64,000 nt of DNA from Tachypleus tridentatus (taxonomy: Eukaryota), in contig NC_134831.1 in the NCBI RefSeq assembly GCF_004210375.1, positions 99,017,522-99,081,521 of the forward strand, written 5' to 3'. A program made the translations under genes and the position numbers. Under the pieces are notes generated by a model. That model saw only the letters and a program-made list of their open reading frames with translations. It ran no database searches and was not told the DNA's origin. Below are positions 9,520 to 62,940 of the stretch, one piece after another. Numbering within the stretch: position 1 is the stretch's first letter; each line of letters opens with the position of its first letter.

Positions 9520-9720
9520 GTTCAAAACAGAAAACCAATGAACACAATTATAGGTATCAGAAAACCAATGAACACAATTATAGGTATCATATTACACATC
9601 ACTATACCTGAACAGAAAACCAATGAACACAATTATAGGTATCATATTACACATCACTATACCTGAACAGAAAACCAATGAACACAATTATAGGTATCAT
9701 ATTACACATCACTATACCTG
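9520..9720. repeat. Short tandem repeat of a roughly 55-bp unit, 3 to 4 copies.
   Basis: The motif cagaaaaccaatgaacacaattataggtatcatattacacatcactatacctgaa is repeated. Confidence 0.8.
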
Positions 9721-11171
9721 AGCTTTTTGCTCAACAGAGATTGACTTGCAGTACTTTCTCATCAGCCACTTTCTGTGCATGTCTTGTAGAATGTTAGAGG
9801 CCTTAAAGAAAACATATTTAAAAGCCAAAAACATAATATTTACAAGTGTTAAATACTGTAATTAAATCTCTGTTATGTACAATAAAAATTAGAAATAAAA
9901 TAATTAATTAAGACATTCATTTTACATAACTTACTTCACGTATGTTATATTTTGAAGGTTCTTGAAGATAATGCAACACATTTTTGTACTGTATTACTGC
10001 TTAGTATTATAGAAGAGGAGAGAAAAGTTTAATAACTGTGACCTGTAAATAAGAAAGAACAGGAAAAAAATACTTTGCTTAAGGATAACCTAATAATACA
10101 CTAGTTTAACCTAAGAATACACTAGTTTAACCTAATAATACATTAGTTTAAAGTCATCAACTCTAAACTTATTCTTAAATAACATCTCACCTGATGGCAG
10201 CATCTTGGAGGGTGGGGCCATGATTTATCGAGGACAGTCTTCGGCAGGTTGCGAGCTAGACGACTTAAGTATTCATACTTCGCACACCGAATAAACTTTA
10301 ACATATCAAATCTTGATCAGCAATTACAAAATTTTTCACTGAGTTGAGAGAGTTGTTTATTATTCACAGGTCAGCATAATAAATAATGACTTGAAATAAA
10401 TGTAGATAACAATAAATGGATAACAACTCTGATTAGCTGTTATATAGACTAGAAATTAGATAGTTTTATTTAAAATTTCACAAAAACAACCCCAAAAGTC
10501 CAAGTTATTTTAAAGTAGAAAAATAAATACATTGAAACTTAGTAAATAATTTTGATAGATTAAGGAAATTTTTCACTTGCTCATGACTTGCCTTAACATT
10601 TATATAACTAAAGAAAGCTTATACTAATATATAACATAAAAAAACTGTTTTTATAGGATGTTAATCTGACTTAAAAATCAAGCAAGTCGTTAATTTAAAA
10701 ATGTCTTTGTTTGTTCCGATCATTTCTGAGTCAATCCTGTAGTCTAATTTGGTATTTGGCTGAAACCTATAATAACAGTAGTGAAAAGACTATATTTAAT
10801 ATTCTATGACAACTTTTGACATGACATTAAAACCTCTGATGGAATAAAATAGCAGTATACAAGTCAGTGATAGTGAGTTGAGTAATAGCTGAGAGCTTTA
10901 AAATGATCATGTTTACAAAACAACAGAACATGTGCACACAGGTCTACTTTAGTTTAAGAATTATATATGTCTAAAAATAATGATCTGAGAAATGTTTGAA
11001 AAGTGGAACATTCTTCATCACTATTAAGACAAGAGGACTCTCTCAACTTTCTGGGTTGTTTTTACGTTTATAACCACCTTGTAATGTAGTAAGATGTCAT
11101 ATTGCTTCCAAATGATGACACTGAAACAAAACATGGCAAAATAATGCCCAGTATCAAGTACTGCTACTTAC

Positions 11172-11226
11172 ATAAGCATTGGTTTCATTTTCTGCTTCAT
11201 TTCTTCTGATAAAACCTTCGATGAAA
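11172..11226 (-). CDS. Class I myosin neck/tail exon. It encodes (D)FIEGFIRRNEAENETNAY.
   Basis: Aligns with MYO1C [22 protein letters not shown]. Acceptor tttag|, donor TAT|gtaagt. Phase fits the previous exon. Confidence 0.7.
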
Positions 11227-12029
11227 CTAAATCAAAGGTACGGAAAAAGCACCCATAACTAAATCAAAAATACGGAAAAAGCACCCATAACTAAATCAAA
11301 GGTACAGAAAAAGCACCCATAACCATAAACACACTCACATATTTATTCATCCTCCCATGCCTACAAATAAAATGCAGCTTCAAACCAACAAATTGAAAAC
11401 AAAATTAAATTGTTAAAATTATTTCACATATGTAAAGCAATTTCATCTGGAATGACTTTGATTAATCATTTTGTATTTTCTTTGTGGCATAACTATTACA
11501 GTGCATCATGTTTACATAATTCTAATACATGGTTTGTATAAAATCCTGGCATCACATTTGTGAGATAATTTCAAAATATGGTATTATGCACACACACACA
11601 CCAATAGTTCTAATGTTACAGAATGCTTTAGGAAGTTGTGACAACAGGCATTTTCCATTATGACTCAATGTTAATGGAGGAATGTTTTTCTGTTTCTTAG
11701 TCTAATTTTCAGTTTATAAGAAGTGCAGAAAATAGTAAAATATAATAAGCTTTGAGTTTTCTTTCATTTTGAGTAACTGTTTGTTTATAAATCACAAAGC
11801 TGGACAATGTCTGTGCTCTACCCACCATGAGTACCAACAACCAGTTTTTATCATTATAAGACCTCTGACTTACTTCTGAATCACTATGGGTCTTTGAGTA
11901 GCTAAACTTTAAATTGGAGACACTTTATTTCATCATTTTTTAAACATATGTATGCTTGACTCTTCCAAACATTTTCAATCAAACTGATAAAGCAATTGAT
12001 ATCCCTTGAGAAAATTATTTTCCCACAGA

Positions 12030-13694: not shown

Positions 13695-16600
13695 CAATAT
13701 TTATTTTTATTTTAGACTGTCAGTATTACACAATGTGTAATTAATGTCTGCTTTAACTGATCATGACCAGAAATAAACATTATATACAAACTACTCATTG
13801 TGAAACAAGTAATATTTATTTTAGACTGTCAGTATTACACAATGTGTAATTAATGTCTGCTTTAACTGATCATGACCAGAACTAAACATTATATACAAAC
13901 TACTCATTGTGAAACAAGTAATATTTATTTTAGACTGTCAGTATTACACAATGTGTAATTAATGTCTGCTTTAACTGATCATGACCAGTACTAAACATTA
14001 TATACAAACTACTCATTGTGAAACAAGTAATATTTATTTTAGACTGTCAGTATTACACAATGTATAATTAATGTCTGCTTTAACTGATCATGACCAGAAC
14101 TAAACATTATATACAAACTACTCATTGTGAAACAAGTAATATTTATTTTAGACTGTCAGTATTACACAATGTGTAATTAATGTCTGCTTTAACTGATCAT
14201 GACCAGAACTAAACATTATATACAAACTACTCATTGTGAAACAAGTAATATTTATTTTAGACTGTCAGTATTACACAATGTGTAATTAATGTCTGCTTTA
14301 ACTGATCATGACCAGAACTAAACATTATATACAAACTACTCATTGTGAAACAAGTAATATTTATTTTAGACTGTCAGTATTACACAATGTATAATTAATG
14401 TCTGCTTTAACTGATCATGACCAGAACTAAACATTATATACAAACTACTCATTGTGAAACAAGTAATATTTATTTTAGACTGTCAGTATTACACAATGTG
14501 TAATTAATGTCTGCTTTAACTGATCATGACCAGAACTAAACATTACATACAAACTACTCATTGTGAAACAAGTAATATTTATTTTAGACTGTCAGTATTA
14601 CACAATGTGTAATTAATGTCTGCTTTAACTGATCATGACCAGAACTAAACATTATATACAAACTACTCATTGTGAAACAAGTAATATTTATTTTAGACTG
14701 TCAGTATTACACAATGTGTAATTAATGTCTGCTTTAACTGATCATGACCAGAACTAAACATTATATACAAACTACTCATTGTGAAACAAGTAATATTTAT
14801 TTTAGACTGTCAGTATTACACAATGTGTAATTAATGTCTGCTTTAACTGATCATGACCAGAACTAAACATTATATACAAACTACTCATTGTGAAACAAGT
14901 AATATTTATTTTAGACTGTCAGTATTACACAATGTGTAATTAATGTCTGCTTTAACTGATCATGACCAGAACTAAACATTATATACAAACTACTCATTGT
15001 GAAACAAGTAATATTTATTTTAGACTGTCAGTATTACACAATGTGTAATTAATGTCTGCTTTAACTGATCATGACCAGAACTAAACATTATATACAAACT
15101 ACTCATTGTGAAACAAGTAATATTTATTTTAGACTGTCAGTATTACACAATGTATAATTAATGTCTGCTTTAACTGATCATGACCAGAACTAAACATTAT
15201 ATACAAACTACTCATTGTGAAACAAGTAATATTTATTTTAGACTGTCAGTATTACACAATGTATAATTAATGTCTGCTTTAACTGATCATGACCAGAACT
15301 AAACATTATATACAAACTACTCATTGTGAAACAAGTAATATTTATTTTAGACTGTCAGTATTACACAATGTATAATTAATGTCTGCTTTAACTGATCATG
15401 ACCAGAACTAAACATTATATACAAACTACTCATTGTGAAACAAGTAATATTTATTTTAGACTGTCAGTATTACACAATGTATAATTAATGTCTGCTTTAA
15501 CTGATCATGACCAGAACTAAACATTATATACAAACTACTCATTGTGAAACAAGTAATATTTATTTTAGACTGTCAGTATTACACAATGTATAATTAATGT
15601 CTGCTTTAACTGATCATGACCAGAACTAAACATTATATACAAACTACTCATTGTGAAACAAGTAATATTTATTTTAGACTGTCAGTATTACACAATGTAT
15701 AATTAATGTCTGCTTTAACTGATCATGACCAGAACTAAACATTATATACAAACTACTCATTGTGAAACAAGTAATATTTATTTTAGACTGTCAGTATTAC
15801 ACAATGTATAATTAATGTCTGCTTTAACTGATCATGACCAGAACTAAACATTATATACAAACTACTCATTGTGAAACAAGTAATATTTATTTTAGACTGT
15901 CAGTATTACACAATGTATAATTAATGTCTGCTTTAACTGATCATGACCAGAACTAAACATTATATACAAACTACTCATTGTGAAACAAGTAATATTTATT
16001 TTAGACTGTCAGTATTACACAATGTATAATTAATGTCTGCTTTAACTGATCATGACCAGAACTAAACATTATATACAAACTACTCATTGTGAAACAAGTA
16101 ATATTTATTTTAGACTGTCAGTATTACACAATGTATAATTAATGTCTGCTTTAACTGATCATGACCAGAACTAAACATTATATACAAACTACTCATTGTG
16201 AAACAAGTAATATTTATTTTAGACTGTCAATATTACACAATGTATAATTAATGTCTGCTTTAACTGATCATGACCAGAACTAAACATTATATACAAACTA
16301 CTCATTGTGAAACAAGTAATATTTATTTTAGACTGTCAATATTACACAATGTATAATTAATGTCTGCTTTAACTGATCATGACCAGAACTAAACATTATA
16401 TACAAACTACTCATTGTGAAACAAGTAATATTTATTTTAGACTGTCAATATTACACAATGTATAATTAATGTCTGCTTTAACTGATCATGACCAGAACTA
16501 AACATTATATACAAACTACTCATTGTGAAACAAGTAATATTTATTTTAGACTGTCAGTATTACACAATGTATAATTAATGTCTGCTTTAACTGATCATGA

Positions 16601-18650
16601 CCAGAACTAAACATTATATACAAACTACTCATTGTGAAACAAGTAATATTTATTTTAGACTGTCGGTATTACACAATGTATAATTAATGTCTGCTTTAAC
16701 TGATCATGACCAGAACTAAACATTATATACAAACTACTCATTGTGAAACAAGTAATATTTATTTTAGACTGTCAGTATTACACAATGTATAATTAATGTC
16801 TGCTTTAACTGATCATGACCAGAACTAAACATTATATACAAACTACTCATTGTGAAACAAGTAATATTTATTTTAGACTGTCAATATTACACAATGTATA
16901 ATTAATGTCTGCTTTAACTGATCATGACCAGAACTAAACATTATATACAAACTACTCATTGTGAAACAAGTAATATTTATTTTAGACTGTCAATATTACA
17001 CAATGTATAATTAATGTCTGCTTTAACTGATCATGACCAGAACTAAACATTATATACAAACTACTCATTGTGAAACAAGTAATATTTATTTTAGACTGTC
17101 AATATTACACAATGTATAATTAATGTCTGCTTTAACTGATCATGACCAGAACTAAACATTATATACAAACTACTCATTGTGAAACAAGTAATATTTATTT
17201 TAGACTGTCAGTATTACACAATGTATAATTAATGTCTGCTTTAACTGATCATGACCAGAACTAAACATTATATACAAACTACTCATTGTGAAACAAGTAA
17301 TATTTATTTTAGACTGTCGGTATTACACAATGTATAATTAATGTCTGCTTTAACTGATCATGACCAGAACTAAACATTATATACAAACTACTCATTGTGA
17401 AACAAGTAATATTTATTTTAGACTGTCAGTATTACACAATGTATAATTAATGTCTGCTTTAACTGATCATGACCAGAACTAAACATTATATACAAACTAC
17501 TCATTGTGAAACAAGTAATATTTATTTTAGACTGTCAGTATTACACAATGTATAATTAATGTCTGCTTTAACTGATCATGACCAGAACTAAACATTATAT
17601 ACAAACTACTCATTGTGAAACAAGTAATATTTATTTTAGACTGTCAGTATTACACAATGTATAATTAATGTCTGCTTTAACTGATCATGACCAGAACTAA
17701 ACATTATATACAAACTACTCATTGTGAAACAAGTAATATTTATTTTAGACTGTCAGTATTACACAATGTATAATTAATGTCTGCTTTAACTGATCATGAC
17801 CAGAACTAAACATTATATACAAACTACTCATTGTGAAACAAGTAATATTTATTTTAGACTGTCAGTATTACACAATGTATAATTAATGTCTGCTTTAACT
17901 GATCATGACCAGAACTAAACATTATATACAAACTACTCATTGTGAAACAAGTAATATTTATTTTAGACTGTCAGTATTACACAATGTATAATTAATGTCT
18001 GCTTTAACTGATCATGACCAGAACTAAACATTATATACAAACTACTCATTGTGAAACAAGTAATATTTATTTTAGACTGTCAATATTACACAATGTATAA
18101 TTAATGTCTGCTTTAACTGATCATGACCAGAACTAAACATTATATACAAACTACTCATTGTGAAACAAGTAATATTTATTTTAGACTGTCAATATTACAC
18201 AATGTATAATTAATGTCTGCTTTAATTGATCATGACCAGAACTAAACATTATATACAAACTACTCATTGTGAAACAAGTAATATTTATTTTAGACTGTCA
18301 ATATTACACAATGTATAATTAATGTCTGCTTTAACTGATCATGACCAGAACTAAACATTATATACAAACTACTCATTGTGAAACAAGTAATATTTATTTT
18401 AGACTGTCAATATTACACAATGTATAATTAATGTCTGCTTTAACTGATCATGACCAGAACTAAACATTATATACAAACTACTCATTGTGAAACAAGTAAT
18501 ATTTATTTTAGACTGTCAGTATTACACAATGTATAATTAATGTCTGCTTTAACTGATCATGACCAGAACTAAACATTATATACAAACTACTCATTGTGAA
18601 ACAAGTAATATTTATTTTAGACTGTCAATATTACACAAAGTATAATTATA
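13695..18650. repeat. Satellite array of a 109-bp unit, about 45 tandem copies (about 5 kb), inside the myosin intron.
   Basis: Unit taatatttattttagactgtcagtattacacaatgtgtaattaatgtctgctttaactgatcatgaccagaactaaacattatatacaaactactcattgtgaaacaag. The period was measured as 109 bp at three successive copies. Confidence 0.97.
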
Positions 18651-22717: not shown

Positions 22718-23035
22718 GTGTCCACAAGTTTAAAAACACAGCTTTTAGTGGTATTAGTGCCCCCAGTGGCACAGTGCTAGAAACTTGATGTTGATACCTA
22801 TGGGGGCAGAGCACAGAGAGCCTATTGTGTAGTTTTGTGCTTCATTACAAACAAAGTGGCATGAGCCCCCATACTTACTATTGAATCATTAAATACTATT
22901 GTAATTTTATTCTTTTTAGAGAGACATTTACAGGCCAGCTTACCTGGCTGTTTTCTGTCGTTGGGTTTGATACATCGGACATACCATGGTTCTTTTGACA
23001 TTAATATTGTCATCAACTGAGACAAGCTTCTCTTA
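22718..23035. repeat. Copy A of a roughly 320-bp segmental duplication. It contains a SINE2 insertion plus the functional myosin exon at 22944-23049.
   Basis: About 90 percent identical to 24937-25250 over a SINE2 element and the adjacent exon sequence. Confidence 0.9.
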
Positions 23036-24936: not shown

Positions 24937-25250
24937 TTAAAAACACAGCTTTTAGTGCTATTAGTGCCCCCAGTGGCACAGTGCTATGTCTGCAGTGCTA
25001 GAAACTCGATGTTGATACCTGTGGGGGGCAGAGCACAGATAGCCTATTGTGTAGTTTTGTGCTTCATTACAAACAATGTGGCATGAGCCCCCATACTAAC
25101 CACTGAGTCACTAGCAGAAAGGAAAATAAGTGTAATTTTATTCTTTTTAGAGAGACATTTACAGGCCAGCTTACCTGGCTGTTTTCTGTCGTTGGGTTTG
25201 ATACATCAGACATTAATGTTGTCACCAACTGACACAATTGATGTGGTTAG
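24937..25250 (-). pseudogene. Copy B of the duplication. It is a pseudo-exon copy of the VRCIKPN exon, with a 19-bp deletion and a CGA to TGA stop.
   Basis: The minus-strand reading gives [11 protein letters not shown] with an intact gtaagc donor. The block accatggttcttttgacat is missing relative to copy A. Confidence 0.8.
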
Positions 25251-37051: not shown

Positions 37052-37869
37052 CTTTAAAAACAAACTAACTAGGAAATAATTTCTTTAAAACAATAAACAT
37101 TTTTAGTTTATTTTAATATAAATCAAACTACTGAATAAAAACTAATATTCTGAAAAACACCATAAAATATTCACATTCATTCATTCTACCACAAAGCAAT
37201 CTTGAATTTTATTGAATTTCTGTCAATGAAGATACTAAATATATACATACCCAACTTTTATTACCTCAGCTTTATAAATTAAACATTCATAATTTAGTAA
37301 CTTGCACTGACGAAATGCAAAGTCAAAATCTCAGAATAGCTACAACATTTATTGGAATGATGTAGCAAACTTTATCTAAATTTAAAAACCAATCATAGTG
37401 AATTTGAACTATGAGTAAGTGCTTCACTCCCTGAGTAACATCTCTGTGTCAAATCAGAGTTTGAGAGCACTTCATTATATTACTGAAATTTCATTTCTGA
37501 AAAAAAAAGAAGAAAATTTTGCTTATAACTTATTCTACAAACTGCTGATAAAGCTGTCAAAGTTTCAGTTAAGGTTTATTAACTTATATCATATACAACA
37601 AACTTAAGAGTAAACAGACTGAAATGAAAATATACATGAATTTTAATATCAAACATTTTATATATTATTCCTGATGAAGTAAAAATGTTGGAATATGGAG
37701 TAAAAGAGAAGTTTATTTTTATTATCCAAAGAGTAAAAGTCGTTTTTTTTTTCTATTTTAGTTTCATAATGTTTAGATCCTTCCAATTTGTACCATAGAA
37801 ATCCAAGAAACTATAAAATATTTCCATCAGTCAAATGAAACCACCATATGTAGAAGGAGGATGGTTTGT

Positions 37870-39180
37870 ACAAAACAACAAGTCATTAAAAATAAATACA
37901 TGTAGTTTAAAGTTATTATATTACCTGTGAGACTGAACAATGTACACTGAATATTGATAATAAATACATGTAGTTTAAAGTTATTATATTACCTGTGAGA
38001 CTGAACAATGTACACTGAATATTGATAATAAATACATGTAGTTTAAAGTTATTATATTACCTGTGAGACTGAACAATGTACACTGAATATTGATAATAAA
38101 TACATGTAGTTTAAAGTTATTATATTACCTGTGAGACTGAACAATGTACACTGAATATTGATAATAAATACATGTAGTTTAAAGTTATTATATTACCTGT
38201 GAGACTGAACAATGTACACTGAATATTGATAATAAATACATGTAGTTTAAAGTTATTATATTACCCTGTGAGACTGAACAATGTACACTGAATATTGATA
38301 ATAAATACATGTAGTTTAAAGTTATTATATTACCTGTGAGACTGAACAATGTACACTGAATATTGATAATAAATACATGTAGTTTAAAGTTATTATATTA
38401 CCTGTGAGACTGAACAATGTACACTGAATATTGATAATAAATACATGTAGTTTAAAGTTATTATATTACCTGTGAGACTGAACAATGTACACTGAATATT
38501 GATAATAAATACATGTAGTTTAAAGTTATTATATTACCTGTGAGACTGAACAATGTACACTGAATATTGATAATAAATACATGTAGTTTAAAGTTATTAT
38601 ATTACCTGTGAGACTGAACAATGTACACTGAATATTGATAATAAATACATGTAGTTTAAAGTTATTATATTACCTGTGAGACTGAACAATGTACACTGAA
38701 TATTGATAATAAATACATGTAGTTTAAAGTTATTATATTACCTGTGAGACTGAACAATGTACACTGAATATTGATAATAAATACATGTAGTTTAAAGTTA
38801 TTATATTACCTGTGAGACTGAACAATGTACACTGAATATTGATAATAAATACATGTAGTTTAAAGTTATTATATTACCTGTGAGACTGAACAATGTACAC
38901 TGAATATTGATAATAAATACATGTAGTTTAAAGTTATTATATTACCTGTGAGACTGAACAATGTACACTGAATATTGATAATAAATACATGTAGTTTAAA
39001 GTTATTATATTACCTGTGAGACTGAACAATGTACACTGAATATTGATAATAAATACATGTAGTTTAAAGTTATTATATTACCTGTGAGACTGAACAATGT
39101 ACACTGAATATTGATAATAAATACATGTAGTTTAAAGTTATTATATTACCTGTGAGACTGAACAATGTACACTGAATATT
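37870..39180. repeat. Tandem repeat of a 68-bp unit, about 19 copies.
   Basis: Unit ttacctgtgagactgaacaatgtacactgaatattgataataaatacatgtagtttaaagttattata, nearly identical between copies. Confidence 0.95.
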
Positions 39181-39419
39181 GCAAAATTAAAGGTAGTTAT
39201 TCAAACTGCACAATAAAACCTTTTAACTTTAGACTTTTGTACAACCTGCATACATTCCAATGGACACTTCATCTGTATTTGTCAACTGGCAAGTAAAAAT
39301 TAATTTTACATCAAGAATATAAGCATTATTAGTTGGTAAGTAATGTTATACATATAATGTACCATTAATCAAATGTGTACAGAAATAAGTATGAAAAGTA
39401 TTTCACTAGATATACTCAC

Positions 39420-39491
39420 AGAATCACCACAAACTTCAATAGTACGATGGGTAAGGGCATCATTCAACATATCTTCTGGACATCCTAAGAG
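39420..39491 (-). CDS. Class I myosin exon. It encodes LLGCPEDMLNDALTHRTIEVCGDS.
   Basis: Aligns with MYO1C [24 protein letters not shown]. Acceptor tttcttag|, donor TCT|gtgagt. 24 codons. Confidence 0.85.
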
Positions 39492-39639
39492 CTAAGAAAA
39501 CAAGAAGAAACTGTTCTATATATTTACTACCAGTTATTTGCCCATCCCTAGAACGTGCACAGCTTAATGTAGAAACTTATTAAATGAAATTCCTTGCAGT
39601 TGCTACAATACATTTATCAGTTACAAAAATGCAACAGTA

Positions 39640-39941
39640 CTATAGCACTGTAACTAACCTTGCATCCAGAATAAACTGACTTCTCCAATGTAATAAGAGC
39701 CTACCCATTATCTTCTGTGGACCCATCATTAACAGAATAACACTGTAACTAGCCTTGCATTCAAAATAAACTAACTTCTCCAGTGTAATAACAGCCTGCC
39801 AATTATCTTCTGTGAATCCAACATTGATACTATAACATTGTAACTAACCTTGCATACAGATTAAACTGACTTCTCCTGTGTAGTAACAACCTAACAATTA
39901 TCTTTTGGACCATACAGTAACACTATAACATTGTAACTAAC
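39640..39941 (-). repeat. Tandem amplification (about 3 extra copies of roughly 95 bp) of the 3' half of the myosin exon at 39942-40052 together with its splice donor.
   Basis: Each unit ends with caaggttagtta (the exon end plus the gttagt donor) on the minus strand. The units diverge from the true exon: their reading frame is interrupted and they do not read as LHLGN coding sequence. Confidence 0.85.
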
Positions 39942-40052
39942 CTTGCATACACAACAAACTGACTTCTCCTGTGCAATAACAGCATGACCATCATCCTCTG
40001 TGAAGCCAACATTACCTAGATGAAGAACTGATGCCACAACTGCAAACAAAGC
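39942..40052 (-). CDS. Class I myosin exon. It encodes [37 protein letters not shown].
   Basis: Contains the conserved myosin LHLGN motif. Aligns with MYO1C [21 protein letters not shown]... Acceptor tttcttctag|, donor AAG|gttagt. Confidence 0.88.
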
Positions 40053-41626
40053 CTAGAAGAAATAACTTGTATTACAGAAGTTATCATCGAAATAAACTGC
40101 AAAAAAGATGTTTCTTTATGAGAAAAACAAATTAACAAATTACAGAATAAACGGTTAAACAATTTTAGTATTTTTCTGGTAGTACCAATGTTATTTGGAA
40201 ACTACCAAATCTAGAACACCAAAAACAATTTATAATTAACCATAACTATGTTTCAAAACACAAAATCTTGTTTAATTTAGTTTTCTAAACTAAATTATGC
40301 TTATTTTTTACAAAACAACCTTTCAAAATTATGCACTTAACTAAATATTATTGCATTCCATAGAAAACAAATCTTATTTTTCTGGAAAGTGTCCAAGACA
40401 TTTCATTCCACCAATCTACATATCTTAGGTGAGGCAATGAAAAACAAGAGACCACTGGATGTACTAATATTAGTGGAAAACATTCACCTGATAAACAAAG
40501 ATTACTATTCCTTCAAAAAAAAAATACTATCTTGAAAATATTATGGAAAACATATTGAAAATGACATTAAATCCATCTGAGAAAAATCAAGCCAGAACAT
40601 TTATTATGTGCAGGAAGCTTTATGCTGAGCCAGAACATTTATTATGTGCAGGAAGCTTTATGCTGAGCCAGAACATTTATTATGTGCAGGAAGGTTTATG
40701 CTGAGCCAGAACATTTATTATGTGCAGGAAGCTTTATGCTGTTGGACTTAATAGAAGCACATAAACTTTACAGCCTGTTAATCACAGCAGTAAACGCTGA
40801 GTATTAGCTCTCTTGATGCCTAAACCATCAAAGTTGCGGGTGAAAACCAATAAAGTGAATAAACAAAATTCCCACTACATGCTTCACACACTGCAGTTAA
40901 GTTTAAACTAATGAAGAACAGCGTGTTTGCAAACTGAAAATAATAGTAGGGTTAGTATTAACAGAATTAGCCTGTTTTAATTGTCTTGAATTTAGCCCAC
41001 CAGTAACAAGTAACAGTTAAGAGAATCATGAAATCATTGCTACATTTTGAAATTCTGAGCATTATACACTGTCTGTATTCATGGAATCTAACTTATTTAT
41101 TCTGAGGTATCTGGAGTGTGACCTAAAATCATGAAGAAGGAAGCATCTTAAATTCCCACTACACATCAAAATTACTCTGCAGGGGAAGTGGTATTTTTAA
41201 GTGCATTTGTGTCAATTGTTGATGACAAGTTTTAGTTAAGTGTAGGTGTGATTAAAGTCAAATATGAATGAACTTTATACAAAAATGGAGACCCAGCAGT
41301 CAAACAGGGCACTTTATTTGTCAAAATGTGTTGTCCAAATATCTTTGTAAACAAACTGTATGTTGCTAAGATACAGTTGAAGCCATAATTCTTCTAAGCC
41401 TTATTGAAATACATTCTGTTGATCTTTCTCGTAGGTCACTCTTTTCATTAAATGGCTAAAAACATTATCATTCTGAATCTTTTCTATAGAAAATTAAATA
41501 AAACAAGAAAGAATGTTACAAATGTAAATATTTAAATATGCAAACCAGATATACTTTCCATTATAAAGTTCATTTATTTTGGTTTTTCAGCAACATATTG
41601 TTAACTCTACACTGCAGATAGCTTAC

Positions 41627-41725
41627 ATTTACTTCCTCTTCTGTGAAATCTATAACTGACAAAGCACTTTTAACAATCTGGAACTGTGCAGTGTCATCAA
41701 GTCTATTCACTCTGGTACTGTTACC
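41627..41725 (-). CDS. Class I myosin exon. It encodes GNSTRVNRLDDTAQFQIVKSALSVIDFTEEEVN.
   Basis: Aligns with MYO1C ...[26 protein letters not shown]. Acceptor ttctag|, donor AAT|gtaagc. 33 codons. Confidence 0.85.
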
Positions 41726-42094
41726 CTAGAAAGAGGCAGTAGTTAAACCCGTTACCTAAAGAGTAATTATTTAAAAATTATAAAGGCAAATGTACAATAC
41801 AAAACAGTTTCTTATAAAATAAGGAAAATTATAATGAAGAAGTACTGCTAGGCACTGGAACAGTGGGGCCCATGCTCTGATTTTATTTGAAAGTGCCCCA
41901 AATCCCCAGTGAAAAATCAGAACAGAAAAACCATGATTGATTTCATATTGAAATGCCACAAATTACTCTGCCTATGAGTCCAAGCCTTGAATAAAGCACC
42001 TTCCAATGTCTCTGCAAAAGCCATTTTATATGATGTTTACTAAATTTCACATAAAGCACCTCAGGCCTACTAGCTGTCCATAATTTTGTAGTAA

Positions 42095-56339: not shown

Positions 56340-56870
56340 GCTTGTTTTGTTTTGTTTTTTAATTTTGCGCAAAGCTACACGAAGGCTATCTGAGTTAGCC
56401 GTCCCTAATTTAGTAGTGTAAGGCGAGAAGATTTGTTTGTTTGTTTGGAAATTTCGCACAAAGCTACTCGAGGGCTATCTGTGCTAGCCGTCTCTAATTT
56501 AGCAGTGTAAGACTAGAGGGAAGGCAGCTAGTCATCACCACCCACCGCCAACTCTTGGGCTACTCTTTACCAACGAATAGTGGGATTGACCGTCACATTA
56601 TACACCCCCACGGCTGGGAGGGTGAGCATGTTTAGCGCGACGCGGGCGCGAACCCGCGACCCTCGGATTACGAGTCGCACGCCTTACGCGCTAGGCCATG
56701 CCGGGCCAAGGCGAGAAGAAAGGCAGCGAGTCATCACCACCCACCGCTAACTCTTTTACCAAAGAATAATGGGATTGACTGTCACATTATAATGCTCTCA
56801 CGGCTGAAAGGGCAAGCATGTTTGGTGTGATGGTGATTGGAACCCGCGACCCTCGGATTACAAGCTAGTC
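56340..56870 (-). mobile_element. Nested SINE1 insertion. One SINE1 copy (56340-56431 plus 56707-56870) is split by a complete SINE1 (56432-56706), with an 11-bp target-site duplication aaggcgagaag.
   Basis: The left fragment ends ...gtaaggcgagaag and the right fragment begins aaggcgagaagaaaggcagcgagtcatcacc. The inserted copy is full length, tail to tRNA head. Confidence 0.8.
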
Positions 56871-58423: not shown

Positions 58424-59335
58424 GTATACGAGGTCTGTTCAAAAAATACGCGGACTGACGTCATAAAACAAAATGTACTTTATTTAGAAGTTACAGGTCT
58501 GGGACCCCTTCAAAGTACTCTCCTCCCCAACGCACACACTTATCCCAACGGTGTTTCCACTTGTTGAAACAGTCCTGGTATGCTTCTTTTGTAATGTCCT
58601 CCATCTCCTTCGTCGCATTTGCCTTAATCTCGGGAATCGTCTCAAATCTTCTTCCTTTCAAGGGTCTTTTGAGTTTGGGGAACAAGAAAAAATCGTAAGG
58701 AGCAAGGTCAGGTGAGTAGGGGGTGGGGAAGAACAGTGGTCGAGTGTTTGGCCAAAAACTCACGAATTCTGAGGGCTGAATTTCGCAGCAACGCGGTGCA
58801 TCTTCAATTTTTCGGTCAAAATCTCGTAACAAGATCCAACTGATATCCCACACTCTTCAGCAAGCTCCCTGACAGTCAGACGTCGATTTGCCCGCACCAG
58901 GGTGTTGATTTTCCCGACGTGTGGGTCGTCAGTTGACGTGGAAGGACGTCCAGGACGCTCATTATCTTCAATGGACTGTCGACCATCCTTAAAACGTTCA
59001 TGCCACTTTAAACATGCCGTACGCTTCAGAGCAACATCACCGTAAGCCGTGTTAAGCATAGCAAAAGTTTCAGTCGCAGATTTTCCAAGTTTAACACAAA
59101 ATTTCACAGCACGTCGTTGCTCCTTCAGGTCATTCATTCTGAAATCCGCCAAACGAAAAAATCGCACTTCACTTAAAACCGCGTAGCTAATACACAAATG
59201 AAGATATCTGCAATCGGGAAATGGCGTCGTAATCAGCTGATCTGTGCGAACCTAGCGATACCAAGCGGATTCCCCTGGAACCAACTGGAGCCGCGCAATT
59301 CAAACAGTCCGCGTATTTTTTTAACAGACCTCGTA
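58424..59335 (-). mobile_element. Internally deleted mariner-family element, about 0.9 kb, with roughly 30-bp TIRs and a TA target-site duplication. The transposase is fragmented.
   Basis: TIRs acgaggtctgttcaaaaaatacgcggactg and cagtccgcgtatttttttaacagacctcgt, flanked by TA. The minus-strand ORFs give the N-terminal HTH region (RPGRPSTSTDDP...LTVRELAEECGIS) and the C-terminal region (YSPDLAPYDFFLFPKLK). The central catalytic DDD core is missing. Confidence 0.9.
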
Positions 59336-62139: not shown

Positions 62140-62940
62140 TTTAGCAGTGTGATCCATTGTGGTAACCACTGAGCCACTTCCTCTTTACCTCCCAATGACC
62201 AAAAGTATGTGGACACCTTTTCTAGTTAGTAGGTTCGGCTACTTCAGCCACACCCATTGCTAACAGGTGCATAAAATCAAGCATACAGCCATGTAATCTC
62301 CATACACAAACATTGGCAGTAGAATGAGTCGTACTGAAGAGCTCGGTTACTTTCAACGTGGCACTGTCACAAGATGCCACCTTTCCAACGATTCAGTTCG
62401 TCAAATTTCTGCCCTGCTAGAGCTGTTCCGGTCAACTGTAAGTGCTGTTATTGTGAAGTGGAAACATCTAGGAACAACAATAGCTCAGCCACAAAGCGGT
62501 AGGCCTCACAAGCTCACAGAACAGGACCGCCGAGTGCTGAAGCGCGTAAAAATCGTCTGTTCAAAGTTACAACACTCACTACCGAGTACCAAACTCCCTC
62601 TGGAAGCAACGCCAGCACAAGAATTATTCGCCGGGAGCTTCATGAAATGGGTTACTATGGCCGAGCAGCCGCACACAAGCCTAAGATCACAATGCGCAAT
62701 GCCAACATGGGCTAGAGTGGTATAAAGAACACCGCCATTGGACTCTGGAGCAGTGGAAATGTGCTCTGTGAAGTGATGAACCACGCTTTACTTCGTGGCA
62801 GTCTAATGGACGACTCTGAGGTTGGTAGATGCCAGAAAAACGCTACTTGCCTGAATGCATAGTGGCAACTGTAAAGTTTTGTGGAGGAGGAACAATGGTC
62901 TGGGGCCGTTTTTTTATGGTTGGGGCTCTTTAGTTCTGGT
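62140..62940 (+). pseudogene. Tc1-family transposase pseudogene. It has a terminal sequence, a frameshifted ORF, and a 3' end truncated by a SINE1 insertion.
   Basis: The ORF at 62324-62725 gives a Tc1-like N-terminus (RGTV..., RPHKLTEQDRRVLKR). Shifted frames further downstream give WSDE-like and TVKFCGGGTMVWG (GGGS/VMVWG) motifs. A TIR-like cagtgtgatccattgtgg...ccaaaagtatgtggacacc lies at 62140-62220. Confidence 0.8.

What the first reader, a model, noticed from the sequence alone, without database searches (positions are those of the whole stretch)
39640..40052. Tandem amplification of the 3' half of a coding exon, donor site included, inside the downstream intron
Immediately 3' of the LHLGN exon (in the gene's orientation) there are three extra copies of roughly 95 bp. 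They derive from the last 95 bp of that exon plus its gttagt donor. Each copy keeps caaggttagtta but has lost coding sense. Each therefore offers a cryptic donor without a matching acceptor. The structure records a recent local tandem duplication and could support aberrant or alternative splicing.
Basis: seen in the sequence. Interest (0 to 1): 0.6.

Follow-up and report, generated by a model that had tools for sequence, protein, structure and literature searches.

The report
Ancient tandem copies of a splice-donor junction
A 95-bp piece spanning the end of a myosin exon and its splice donor was duplicated in tandem into the following intron of a horseshoe-crab gene, probably before the ~130-million-year-old split from Limulus, and the extra copies look like tolerated junk rather than working exons.

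Summary
Window 39637-40016 (minus strand) holds four head-to-tail copies of a ~95-bp unit. The first copy is the last 73 nt of a 111-nt exon (40052-39942) plus 22 nt of intron, including the donor CAAG|GTTAGT.

- **Gene:** a class I myosin. My model is 100% identical to Tachypleus tridentatus "unconventional myosin-Ic-like".
- **Extra copies:** three copies (283 nt) fill about two thirds of a 450-nt intron. U1 and U3 keep the exact donor; U2 has GT>GC. U1 and U3 carry stop codons; U2 is open.
- **Splicing:** any cryptic donor would splice to the next exon's acceptor (39491) and bring in a TAG 17 codons on. All nine RefSeq isoforms use the authentic donor.
- **Age:** "recent" is not supported. 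Copies are 77-82% alike, close to Tachypleus-Limulus intron divergence (76%). The Limulus ortholog carries the same unit x2 with the same junction. The Tachypleus intronic copies keep ancestral codons (Asn, Gln) that both species' exons have replaced. Two paralogs lack the repeat. The first duplication therefore most likely predates the ~130 Mya split.

Best reading: an old, probably neutral minisatellite straddling a donor, one of about 18 arrays in the window. I found no evidence of function. Modest interest.

The parts
39942..40052 (-). Coding exon of the class I myosin motor ([37 protein letters not shown]), 111 nt, phase 0/0
   Evidence: Splice enumeration. The protein model is 100% identical to T. 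tridentatus myosin-Ic-like. Pfam Myosin_head, E = 1e-219.
39920..40016 (-). Unit U0, the founding copy: last ~73 nt of the exon + donor + first 22 nt of the intron
   Evidence: Alignments A1/A2.
39936..39944 (-). Authentic donor AAG|GTTAGT (first intron base at 39941). It is the only one of 24 donors in this gene with T at +3.
   Evidence: The same GTTAGT/GTTGGT donor is present in two Limulus paralogs.
39827..39919 (-). Unit U1: 93 nt, 2-nt deletion, TAG and TAA in the exon frame, donor 9-mer intact (G at 39848). It is a mosaic: the 3' half is 50/54 identical to U0 and the 5' half only 25/39.
   Evidence: (Fisher P = 0.001).
39732..39826 (-). Unit U2: 95 nt, open in the exon frame, donor mutated to GC (G at 39753)
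39637..39731 (-). Unit U3, the terminal copy: 95 nt, one TAG, donor 9-mer intact (G at 39658). It ends in the native intron sequence ...ATAGTAC.
39492..39941 (-). The whole intron, 450 nt. Of this, 283 nt are units U1-U3 and 22 nt are the intronic part of U0.
39492..39636 (-). Unique remainder of the intron, ending in the acceptor ttgttttcttag. It is orthologous to Limulus L002 41941-42077 at 75.9% identity.
39420..39491 (-). Next exon (LLGCPEDMLNDALTHRTIEVCGDS). Its acceptor would serve all four donors.

Best explanation
This is an old minisatellite-type tandem duplication whose 95-bp unit happens to straddle an exon-intron boundary of a horseshoe-crab class I myosin gene (Tachypleus tridentatus myosin-Ic-like).

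**Origin.**
- A segment made of the last 73 nt of the exon, the donor and 22 nt of intron was duplicated head to tail. Slippage or unequal exchange is the inferred cause.
- This happened after the gene separated from its whole-genome-duplication paralogs, and most probably before the Tachypleus/Limulus split.
- In the Tachypleus lineage the extra copy was then amplified to three. In Limulus one extra copy remains, and it has been re-copied or gene-converted from the exon.

**Effect on the gene.**
- Because the duplicate was inserted downstream of the authentic donor, the coding exon stayed intact. The extra copies simply became intron, lengthening it from about 165 nt to 450 nt.
- The copies are decaying pseudo-exon fragments.
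- Their donors are cryptic sites that compete for the same acceptor. Using any of them would bring in an in-frame TAG. Such transcripts would be non-productive and presumably removed by nonsense-mediated decay (NMD).
- The productive mRNA uses the first donor.

**Shown:** the anatomy, the homology, the ages, the presence in Limulus, the absence in paralogs, and the stop codons.

**Inferred:** the duplication mechanism, neutrality, NMD, and that the first donor is the one mostly used in vivo (this last rests on annotation and homology only).
For: **Repeat and gene model.**
- Repeat statistics.
- Exon and intron boundaries, with a gene model 100% identical over 667 aa to XP_ isoforms of T. tridentatus.
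- All nine isoforms read ...SVCCVCK|LLGCPEDML.
- A mite homolog is intron-less here and reads ...HICKLLQC... without a gap.

**Limulus ortholog (L002).**
- Exon 41713-41823 is followed by one extra 95-bp unit (TRF 41751-41938, 2.0 copies, 94%).
- It has the same junction, ATAGTGT|TAATGTTGG. At U0 the end dinucleotide is the same derived 'GT', against the native 'AC' at the end of the terminal unit, in both species.

**Paralogs.** Loci L003 and L004 have the same exon and the same unusual donor, but no repeat in their 705-nt and ~800-nt introns.

**Polarised sites.**
- At columns 21 and 25, T_U1-3 and both paralogs have A, while T_U0, L_U0 and L_U1 share G.
- At column 33, the copies and paralogs encode Gln (CAR), while the exons have CAT/CGT.
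- The copies therefore fossilise the ancestral '...NGQ...' still seen in paralogs and arachnids.

**Neutrality.**
- Unit-to-unit identity is 77-82%; orthologous neutral intron identity is 75.9%.
- The intronic copies are no better conserved between species than unique intron (T_U3 vs L_U1 81%).
- One of the three cryptic donors is already mutated.
- There is no RNA structure (z = +1.0) and no Rfam hit.

**Consequences and context.**
- Each cryptic donor gives the same TAG 17 codons after the exon.
- The window is 18% tandem arrays, about 18 of them, so a junction-straddling array is not unexpected.
Against: - No transcript data were available, so the share of splicing that goes to the cryptic donors is unknown.
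- Two intronic donors are identical to the authentic one. One of them sits at the ancestral intron length (167 nt) from the acceptor, so by sequence alone they should compete.
- Persistence of such competitors for more than 100 My, and the retention of 2 of 3 intact 9-mers, is compatible with neutrality (crude expectation about 0.3 per copy) but also with weak selection for them.
- The pre-split dating rests on 2-3 polarised sites plus the shared junction, within 97 aligned columns.
- Junction-straddling arrays look slightly more frequent than random placement predicts (see the full report).
Confidence: 0.8

Rival explanations
1. The extra donors are functional cis-elements. As additional U1 snRNP binding sites just downstream of a weak, non-consensus donor (T at +3), they would strengthen definition of the 111-nt exon. 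Alternatively they would provide regulated unproductive splicing (alternative 5' sites coupled to NMD) that tunes myosin-I output.
For: - The array has probably persisted since before the Tachypleus/Limulus split.
- Two of three intronic donors are identical to the authentic 9-mer.
- The authentic donor is the only one of 24 in the gene with T at +3.
- The donor-proximal half of the unit has more invariant columns than the 5' half (40/54 vs 21/43, P = 0.012, a post hoc split).
- A 5' splice site downstream of an exon is known to recruit SRSF1/U2AF and stimulate exon definition (PMC8724738).
Against: - Two paralogs with the same GTTAGT/GTTGGT donor manage without any copies.
- Copy number differs between species (4 vs 2).
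- The copies evolve at about the neutral intron rate.
- U2's donor is already GT>GC.
- The higher similarity near the donor is largely due to one mosaic unit (U1), which looks like a gene-conversion tract (P = 0.001).
- No annotated isoform uses the cryptic donors.
Confidence: 0.1
2. The Tachypleus and Limulus arrays arose independently by recurrent duplication at a slippage-prone spot, so nothing is shared by descent. The Tachypleus amplification would then be old but lineage-specific.
For: - The Limulus extra copy is 93% identical to the Limulus exon copy and shares a Limulus-specific base (column 32) and the exon-lineage derived bases. It is therefore young, or recently converted.
- There is a short near-repeat at the two ends of the unit (GGTAATGTTGG in the exon, AGTACTGTTGC in the intron) that could favour recurrent events.
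Against: - The breakpoint is identical. The same derived 'GT' replaces the native 'AC' at the U0/U1 junction in both species.
- Three polarised sites show that the Tachypleus intronic copies split from the exon before substitutions that the two species' exons share. The common ancestor therefore already had an extra copy.
Confidence: 0.1
3. One reading: a recent local tandem duplication.
For: Tandem arrangement and recognisable homology. Most other arrays in the window are indeed young, at 93-100% identity.
Against: - This array is among the most diverged in the window, at 80%.
- Its units are about as diverged as orthologous Tachypleus-Limulus intron.
- It is present in Limulus.
Confidence: 0.03
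4. A cluster of tandemly duplicated alternative (mutually exclusive) exons, or its remnant, as in insect myosin heavy chain genes.
For: - Tandem exon-derived copies, each with a donor.
- U2 (and the Limulus copy) keep an open frame.
Against: - The copies lack the first 38 nt of the exon and any acceptor of their own.
- The 22-nt spacer between a donor and the next copy is too short to be an intron.
- Two copies have stops.
- No isoform alternates here.
Confidence: 0.02

Closest known systems
Internal (partial-exon) tandem gene duplication followed by intronisation of one copy. This is the Rogers proto-splice-site model, with cases in Drosophila (Lehmann et al. 2010, PMC2891723) and the potato RdRp gene (PMC4974935).
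   Same: - A short tandem duplication includes coding sequence and a splice signal.
- The gene survives because the surplus copy is spliced out.
- Surplus copies carry premature stops, so NMD can mop up errors.
   Different: - No new intron is created. The intron and its unusual donor already exist in both paralogs.
- The duplication spans an existing donor and only lengthens the existing intron.
- It was then amplified to four copies.
Intronic minisatellites / VNTR arrays
   Same: - Unit of 95 bp, in head-to-tail copies.
- Copy number differs between species (4 vs 2).
- There are signs of unequal exchange or gene conversion (a mosaic unit, and a homogenised Limulus copy).
- It sits among many similar arrays in the same gene.
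   Different: The unit contains 73 nt of constrained coding sequence and a working splice donor, so one copy is under purifying selection while the rest drift.
Tandemly duplicated, mutually exclusive exons (e.g. insect Mhc, Dscam)
   Same: Exon-derived tandem copies within one gene.
   Different: The copies are partial, have no acceptors, are not in phase as cassettes and are partly stop-ridden. They are not used in any annotated isoform.
Competing duplicated 5' splice sites in experimental constructs (work of Reed and Maniatis, and of Eperon and Krainer; recalled from memory, not checked here)
   Same: Identical donor sequences lie in series upstream of one acceptor.
   Different: This is a natural and evolutionarily old arrangement. 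Here the site furthest from the acceptor must be the productive one, whereas in those assays the acceptor-proximal site is often preferred when both are occupied.

Membership tests
Tandem repeat / minisatellite | Head-to-tail copies of a 10-100+ bp unit, with similarity well above chance | tested here: met
   TRF period 95, 4.0 copies, score 463. blastn E = 1e-20 to 1e-24.
Tandem repeat / minisatellite | Copy-number change and exchange between copies over evolutionary time | tested here: met
   - 4 copies in Tachypleus, 2 in Limulus.
- Mosaic U1 (P = 0.001).
- The Limulus copy is homogenised with its exon.
Exon-derived internal duplication with intronised copies | The copies derive from bona fide coding sequence, not the reverse | tested here: met
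   The exon is conserved without gaps in paralogs, arachnids and mites. The paralog introns lack the repeat.
Exon-derived internal duplication with intronised copies | Surplus copies are removed from the mature mRNA | tested here: inconclusive
   All 9 RefSeq protein isoforms and the Limulus protein skip them, but no RNA reads were examined.
Intron gain by tandem duplication (Rogers model) | The duplication creates an intron at a position that had none | tested here: not met
   The same intron position and the same GTT.GT donor occur in paralog loci L003 and L004.
Mutually exclusive / cassette alternative exons | Each copy has its own acceptor and donor, an intact frame and a compatible phase | tested here: not met
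   - The copies start 38 nt into the exon.
- The 22-nt spacer is too short for an intron.
- There are stops in U1 and U3.
Mutually exclusive / cassette alternative exons | Isoforms that differ by the choice of copy | tested here: not met
   The nine isoforms are identical across this region.
Functional alternative 5' splice sites | Use of the alternative site gives an in-frame product | tested here: not met
   All three cryptic donors lead to a TAG 17 codons after the exon.
Functional alternative 5' splice sites | Transcripts that use the alternative sites, with regulation | not testable with these tools
   No RNA-seq access.
Transposable element / SINE-derived repeat | Dispersed copies elsewhere | tested here: not met
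   - There are no other hits in the 64-kb window.
- In L002 the window segment matches only the orthologous site.
- In paralog locus L004 that locus's own exon-donor unit matches only itself.
- A metagenome scan found 0 matches.
Class I myosin (Myo1C / Myo61F type), the host gene | Myosin motor domain, IQ motif and TH1 tail | tested here: met
   - Pfam Myosin_head, E = 1e-219.
- A TH1 match in a tail exon and a weak IQ match.
- 100% identity to T. tridentatus myosin-Ic-like, which carries PF00063 and PF06017.

The most novel reading that the evidence does not exclude
Tandem arrays that duplicate splice sites might be a recurrent and long-lived feature of horseshoe-crab genes.

**Observations.**
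- Across four myosin-I loci, five or six arrays straddle a splice junction, against about 2 expected. This array has lasted more than 130 My.

**Hypothesis.**
- Such arrays would be retained because serial U1 (or U2AF) binding sites act as built-in splicing enhancers or decoys for weak sites, or because they set the level of productive mRNA through NMD.
- The LHLGN-exon array would then be a conserved 'splice-site array' rather than junk.
Probability: 0.07. Interest if true: 0.6.

Novelty: new member of a known kind. Interest (0 to 1): 0.3.

Why it matters
- **Natural experiment.** Identical 5' splice sites sit in series before one acceptor, apparently for over 100 million years, and the gene still makes a normal motor protein. 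This bears on how cells choose among equivalent donors and on how much splicing noise NMD can absorb.
- **Molecular fossils.** The intronic copies preserve ancestral codons (Asn, Gln, Tyr-Ser) that the working exon has since changed.
- **How introns grow.** A junction-spanning duplication can lengthen an intron threefold without harming the gene.
- **Limits.** None of this is a new principle. It is a clean example, and it was dated here.

Tried and rejected
1. **Low complexity or chance.** Rejected on the blastn and TRF statistics.
2. **Mutually exclusive exons.** Rejected on the anatomy and the isoforms.
3. **RNA structure that could hide the cryptic donors.** The 581-nt pre-mRNA folds no better than shuffles, z = +1.02.
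4. **Known ncRNA in the intron.** No Rfam match at E <= 1 in 37500-42000. No plus-strand ORF of note.
5. **Mite homolog locus L001 as an ortholog for intron comparison.** The gene is intron-less there, so it served only to confirm the junction.
6. **Tachypleus paralog P0123.** It is not on record for DNA retrieval. The Limulus paralogs L003 and L004 were used instead.
7. **Third protein search, with the exon read through into the intron, to fish fragments from other horseshoe crabs.** No candidates.
8. **Metagenome scan with a degenerate 24-mer of the donor region.** 0 hits.
9. **Selection on the cryptic donors.** Retention of 2 of 3 intact 9-mers is within my crude neutral expectation (an estimate, not a tool result). 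The excess similarity near the donor (P = 0.012) is mostly one conversion-like tract in U1.
10. **Enrichment of arrays at splice junctions.** Only borderline: window P = 0.035; four loci P = 0.02-0.06.
11. **First protein search with concatenated motif exons.** It returned only short fragments. The full model was needed.

Full report
**1. What is in the sequence**

On the minus strand, window 40016-39637 consists of four head-to-tail units of 95, 93, 95 and 95 nt.
- TRF reports period 95, 4.0 copies, 80% matches, score 463. The same array also reads as period 188 x2 at 83%.
- The repeat finder reports four copies spaced 95, 95 and 93 nt.
- A blastn of the exon +/-40 nt against the whole 64-kb window hits only these three neighbours, with E = 4e-24 to 7e-20.
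- The unit is not low complexity. The copies differ by about 20%, so collapse or expansion during assembly cannot explain them.

**2. The gene and the exact exon**

Myosin motifs lie co-linearly on the minus strand from about 53 kb down to 1 kb: [40 protein letters not shown] and IQ.
- Enumerating frame-preserving GT/AG pairs gave a 19-exon model.
- The model matches Pfam Myosin_head at E = 1e-219.
- It is 100% identical over its full 667 aa to 'unconventional myosin-Ic-like isoform X3 [Tachypleus tridentatus]'.

The exon of the finding is 40052..39942. It is 111 nt, phase 0/0, and encodes [37 protein letters not shown].
- Its donor is CAAG|GTTAGT, with the first intron base at 39941.
- The next exon starts at 39491 (LLGCPEDML...).
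- The intron is therefore only 450 nt. The three extra units (283 nt) are about two thirds of it, and without them it would be about 167 nt.

The junction is independently confirmed in three ways.
- A mite homolog has no intron here and reads ...AVIAQHKTVGHICKLLQC... with no gap.
- The Limulus protein reads across the same junction.
- All nine RefSeq isoforms of the Tachypleus gene do the same.

**3. Anatomy of the units**

Each unit is about 73 nt homologous to the exon's 3' two thirds, starting at the Asn codon of LHLGN, followed by 22 nt homologous to the start of the intron.

| Unit | Coordinates | State |
|---|---|---|
| U0 | 39920-40016 | The real exon end and donor |
| U1 | 39827-39919 | 2-nt deletion; TAG and TAA in the exon frame |
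| U2 | 39732-39826 | Open in frame (VGFTEDNWQAVITLEKLVYFECK); donor is GC |
| U3 | 39637-39731 | One TAG |

- U1 and U3 keep the donor 9-mer AAG|GTTAGT exactly.
- None of the copies has the first 38 nt of the exon or an acceptor of its own.
- The 22-nt spacer is too short to be spliced as an intron, so the copies cannot be cassette or mutually exclusive exons.
- Any cryptic donor would pair with the acceptor at 39491, giving introns of 357, 262 or 167 nt. Each choice would carry the same in-frame TAG 17 codons after the exon end.
- The authentic donor is the only one of 24 donors in this gene with T at +3. The two Limulus paralogs have the same oddity (GTTAGT, GTTGGT), so it is an old, working site.

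**4. Age and history**

Pairwise identity among the four Tachypleus units is 77-82% and star-like.

I retrieved the Limulus polyphemus ortholog (L002, protein 92% identical).
- It has the same 111-nt exon (41713-41823), followed by one extra 95-bp unit. TRF gives 41751-41938, 2.0 copies, 94%.
- The unit boundaries are identical: the junction is ...ATAGTGT|TAATGTTGG...
- In both species the internal junction carries 'GT' where the terminal unit keeps the native intron 'AC'.
- The unique remainder of the intron aligns between the species at 75.9% identity (101/133). The Tachypleus units are thus about as diverged from each other as neutral orthologous sequence of the two species.

Two paralogous Limulus loci have the same exon and donor but no repeat. 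Their introns are 705 nt (L003) and about 800 nt (L004).

Using the paralogs as outgroups:
- At columns 21 and 25, the three Tachypleus intronic copies and both paralogs have A. The Tachypleus exon, the Limulus exon and the Limulus copy share G.
- At column 33, the copies and paralogs encode Gln (CAG/CAA). The exons have CAT or CGT.
- At the protein level the copies keep '...N-G-Q...', as in the paralogs and in spiders, ticks and mites. Both exons read D-G-H/R.
- The intronic copies therefore branched off before substitutions that the two species' exons share, that is, before the species split.
- That split is dated to about 130 Mya (121-141) in PMC7011531.
- A crude estimate of getting two exact 'reversions' among the four changes on the copies' stem is about 0.01. 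This is my estimate, not a tool result.

The copies also record later changes.
- Tyr-Ser (TATTCT) is kept in Limulus and in U3, while the Tachypleus exon now reads Cys-Cys (TGTTGT).
- The Limulus extra copy shares a Limulus-specific base (column 32) and the exon-lineage states with its exon. It was therefore re-copied or gene-converted after the split.
- In Tachypleus, U1 is a mosaic. It is 50/54 identical to U0 in the donor-proximal half and 25/39 in the other half (Fisher P = 0.001). This is again the signature of exchange within an array.

Sequence of events I infer:
1. One duplication after the paralogs separated and before the species split.
2. Amplification to four copies in the Tachypleus lineage, roughly 0.7-0.9 of the species divergence by the crude clock.
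3. Turnover or conversion in Limulus.

**5. Function**

I found nothing that points to function.
- Copies evolve at about the neutral intron rate between species (T_U3 vs L_U1 81%, against 76% for unique intron).
- One cryptic donor has already mutated.
- Copy number differs between species, and the paralogs with the same weak donor have no copies.
- There is no stable RNA structure (z = +1.02), no Rfam match and nothing on the plus strand.
- The excess of invariant columns near the donor (P = 0.012) is a post hoc split. It is largely explained by the conversion-like tract in U1.
- The region is extraordinarily rich in minisatellites. About 18 arrays cover 11.7 kb of 64 kb (my sum of the array lengths), most at 93-100% identity. 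The Limulus locus is similar.

What cannot be excluded without RNA data is that the cryptic donors are used to some extent.
- Two of them are identical to the real one, and U3's sits at the ancestral intron distance.
- A downstream U1-bound 5' splice site can also stimulate exon definition (PMC8724738).
- A weak enhancer or decoy role therefore remains a minority possibility.

**6. Comparison with known things**

The closest concept is internal tandem duplication of coding sequence with intronisation of the surplus copy. This is the proto-splice-site or tandem-duplication model discussed by Lehmann et al. 2010 (PMC2891723) and in the potato RdRp case (PMC4974935).
- The difference is that no intron is created here. 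An existing donor junction was duplicated and the existing intron was lengthened.
- It is also an ordinary minisatellite in its dynamics.
- It is not a mutually exclusive exon cluster, not a transposable element, and not a recent event.

**7. Side observation**

In this window two more arrays straddle splice junctions.
- A 55-bp x3 array (100% identical) starts at the donor of exon 9801-9718.
- A 32-bp x3 array contains the acceptor of exon 11226-11172.
- Placing one unit per array at random predicts 0.75 such cases. Three are observed, P = 0.035.

Adding three Limulus loci brings in two further donor-straddling arrays.
- One is a 63-bp x4 array in L002, and the other a 53-bp x18 array in L003.
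- The totals become 5-6 observed against 2.0 expected, P = 0.02-0.06.
- This is suggestive only, but there is at least no depletion. Duplicated splice sites seem well tolerated in these genes.

**8. Verdict**

- The derivation from the exon plus its donor is right.
- 'Recent' and 'no matching acceptor' are wrong.
- Splicing consequences remain untested.
- This is a new, datable example of a known kind of event, of modest interest.

Noticed in passing
window 9558-9721 (minus strand): A 55-bp x3 array, 100% identical, begins exactly at the donor of exon 9801-9718 (GCTCAG|GTATAG). Each unit starts with GTATAG and ends with TTTTCTGTTCAG, so every unit looks like a complete mini-intron and every unit boundary like a recursive splice site (AG|GT). 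RefSeq isoform X4 (P0247) skips precisely this 84-nt exon.
   Followed up: partly
window 11225-11323 (minus strand): A 32-bp x3.1 array (92%) contains the acceptor CCTTTGATTTAG plus the first 2 nt of exon 11226-11172. There are therefore three acceptors in series, and using either upstream one would shift the frame.
   Followed up: partly
window 13706-18648: A 109-bp x45 array (99% identical, 4.9 kb) ends 22 nt upstream of the acceptor of the IQ exon (13684). Each unit contains a branch-point-like TACTGAC. Part of the unit is also present at the orthologous Limulus site.
   Followed up: partly
window 25131-25237 vs 22900-23025: A dispersed copy of the 3' part of the RCIKPN exon, with its donor CCAG|GTAAGC and 36 nt of intron, lies 2.2 kb upstream in another intron. 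It is 98.8% identical over 83 bp and has a 14-bp deletion and a stop. It appears absent at the orthologous Limulus position, so it is probably young.
   Followed up: partly
whole window; L002, L003, L004: Minisatellite density is very high: about 18 arrays of period 20-109 bp cover about 18% of the window. Arrays straddling splice junctions number 3 in the window (0.75 expected, P = 0.035) and 5-6 over four myosin-I loci (2.0 expected, P = 0.02-0.06). This is at least no depletion and possibly mild enrichment, mostly at donors.
   Followed up: partly
L002 18483-18969 (Limulus ortholog): A 63-bp x4 array (96%) is made of the last 46 nt of the ...EQYRNVNFFELPPH exon plus GTAAGT and 17 nt of intron. 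It is followed by an inverted copy and two more diverged direct copies. The Tachypleus counterpart lies outside the window.
   Followed up: no
L003 38903-39877 (Limulus paralog): A 53-bp x18 array (75%) starts 8 nt before the donor of the ...EEYRREGIE exon (GGATTGAG|GTAAGA). It repeats that donor many times, in various states of decay.
   Followed up: no
window 39936-39941; L003 26061-26066; L004 ~29276: The donor of the LHLGN exon has T at +3 (GTTAGT). It is the only such donor among 24 in the gene. The same T at +3 is kept in two paralogs (GTTAGT, GTTGGT), so this is a conserved non-consensus donor.
   Followed up: yes
window 58494-59251 (-), 62297-62722 (+), 56346-56511, 30.8-33 kb: Transposon debris lies upstream of and inside the gene.
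- A Mos1/mariner-type transposase HTH (PF17906, E = 3e-9).
- A Sleeping-Beauty/Tc1-type HTH, below Pfam's cut-off.
- A tRNA-like SINE-looking 89-bp x1.9 repeat.
- GC-richer ORFs without Pfam hits in the 34.8-29.8 kb intron.

   Followed up: partly
window 41627-41725: RefSeq isoform X6 (P0245) skips the 99-nt exon just upstream of the LHLGN exon (YYYLNQ|ALFAV...), which removes part of the motor domain.
   Followed up: no
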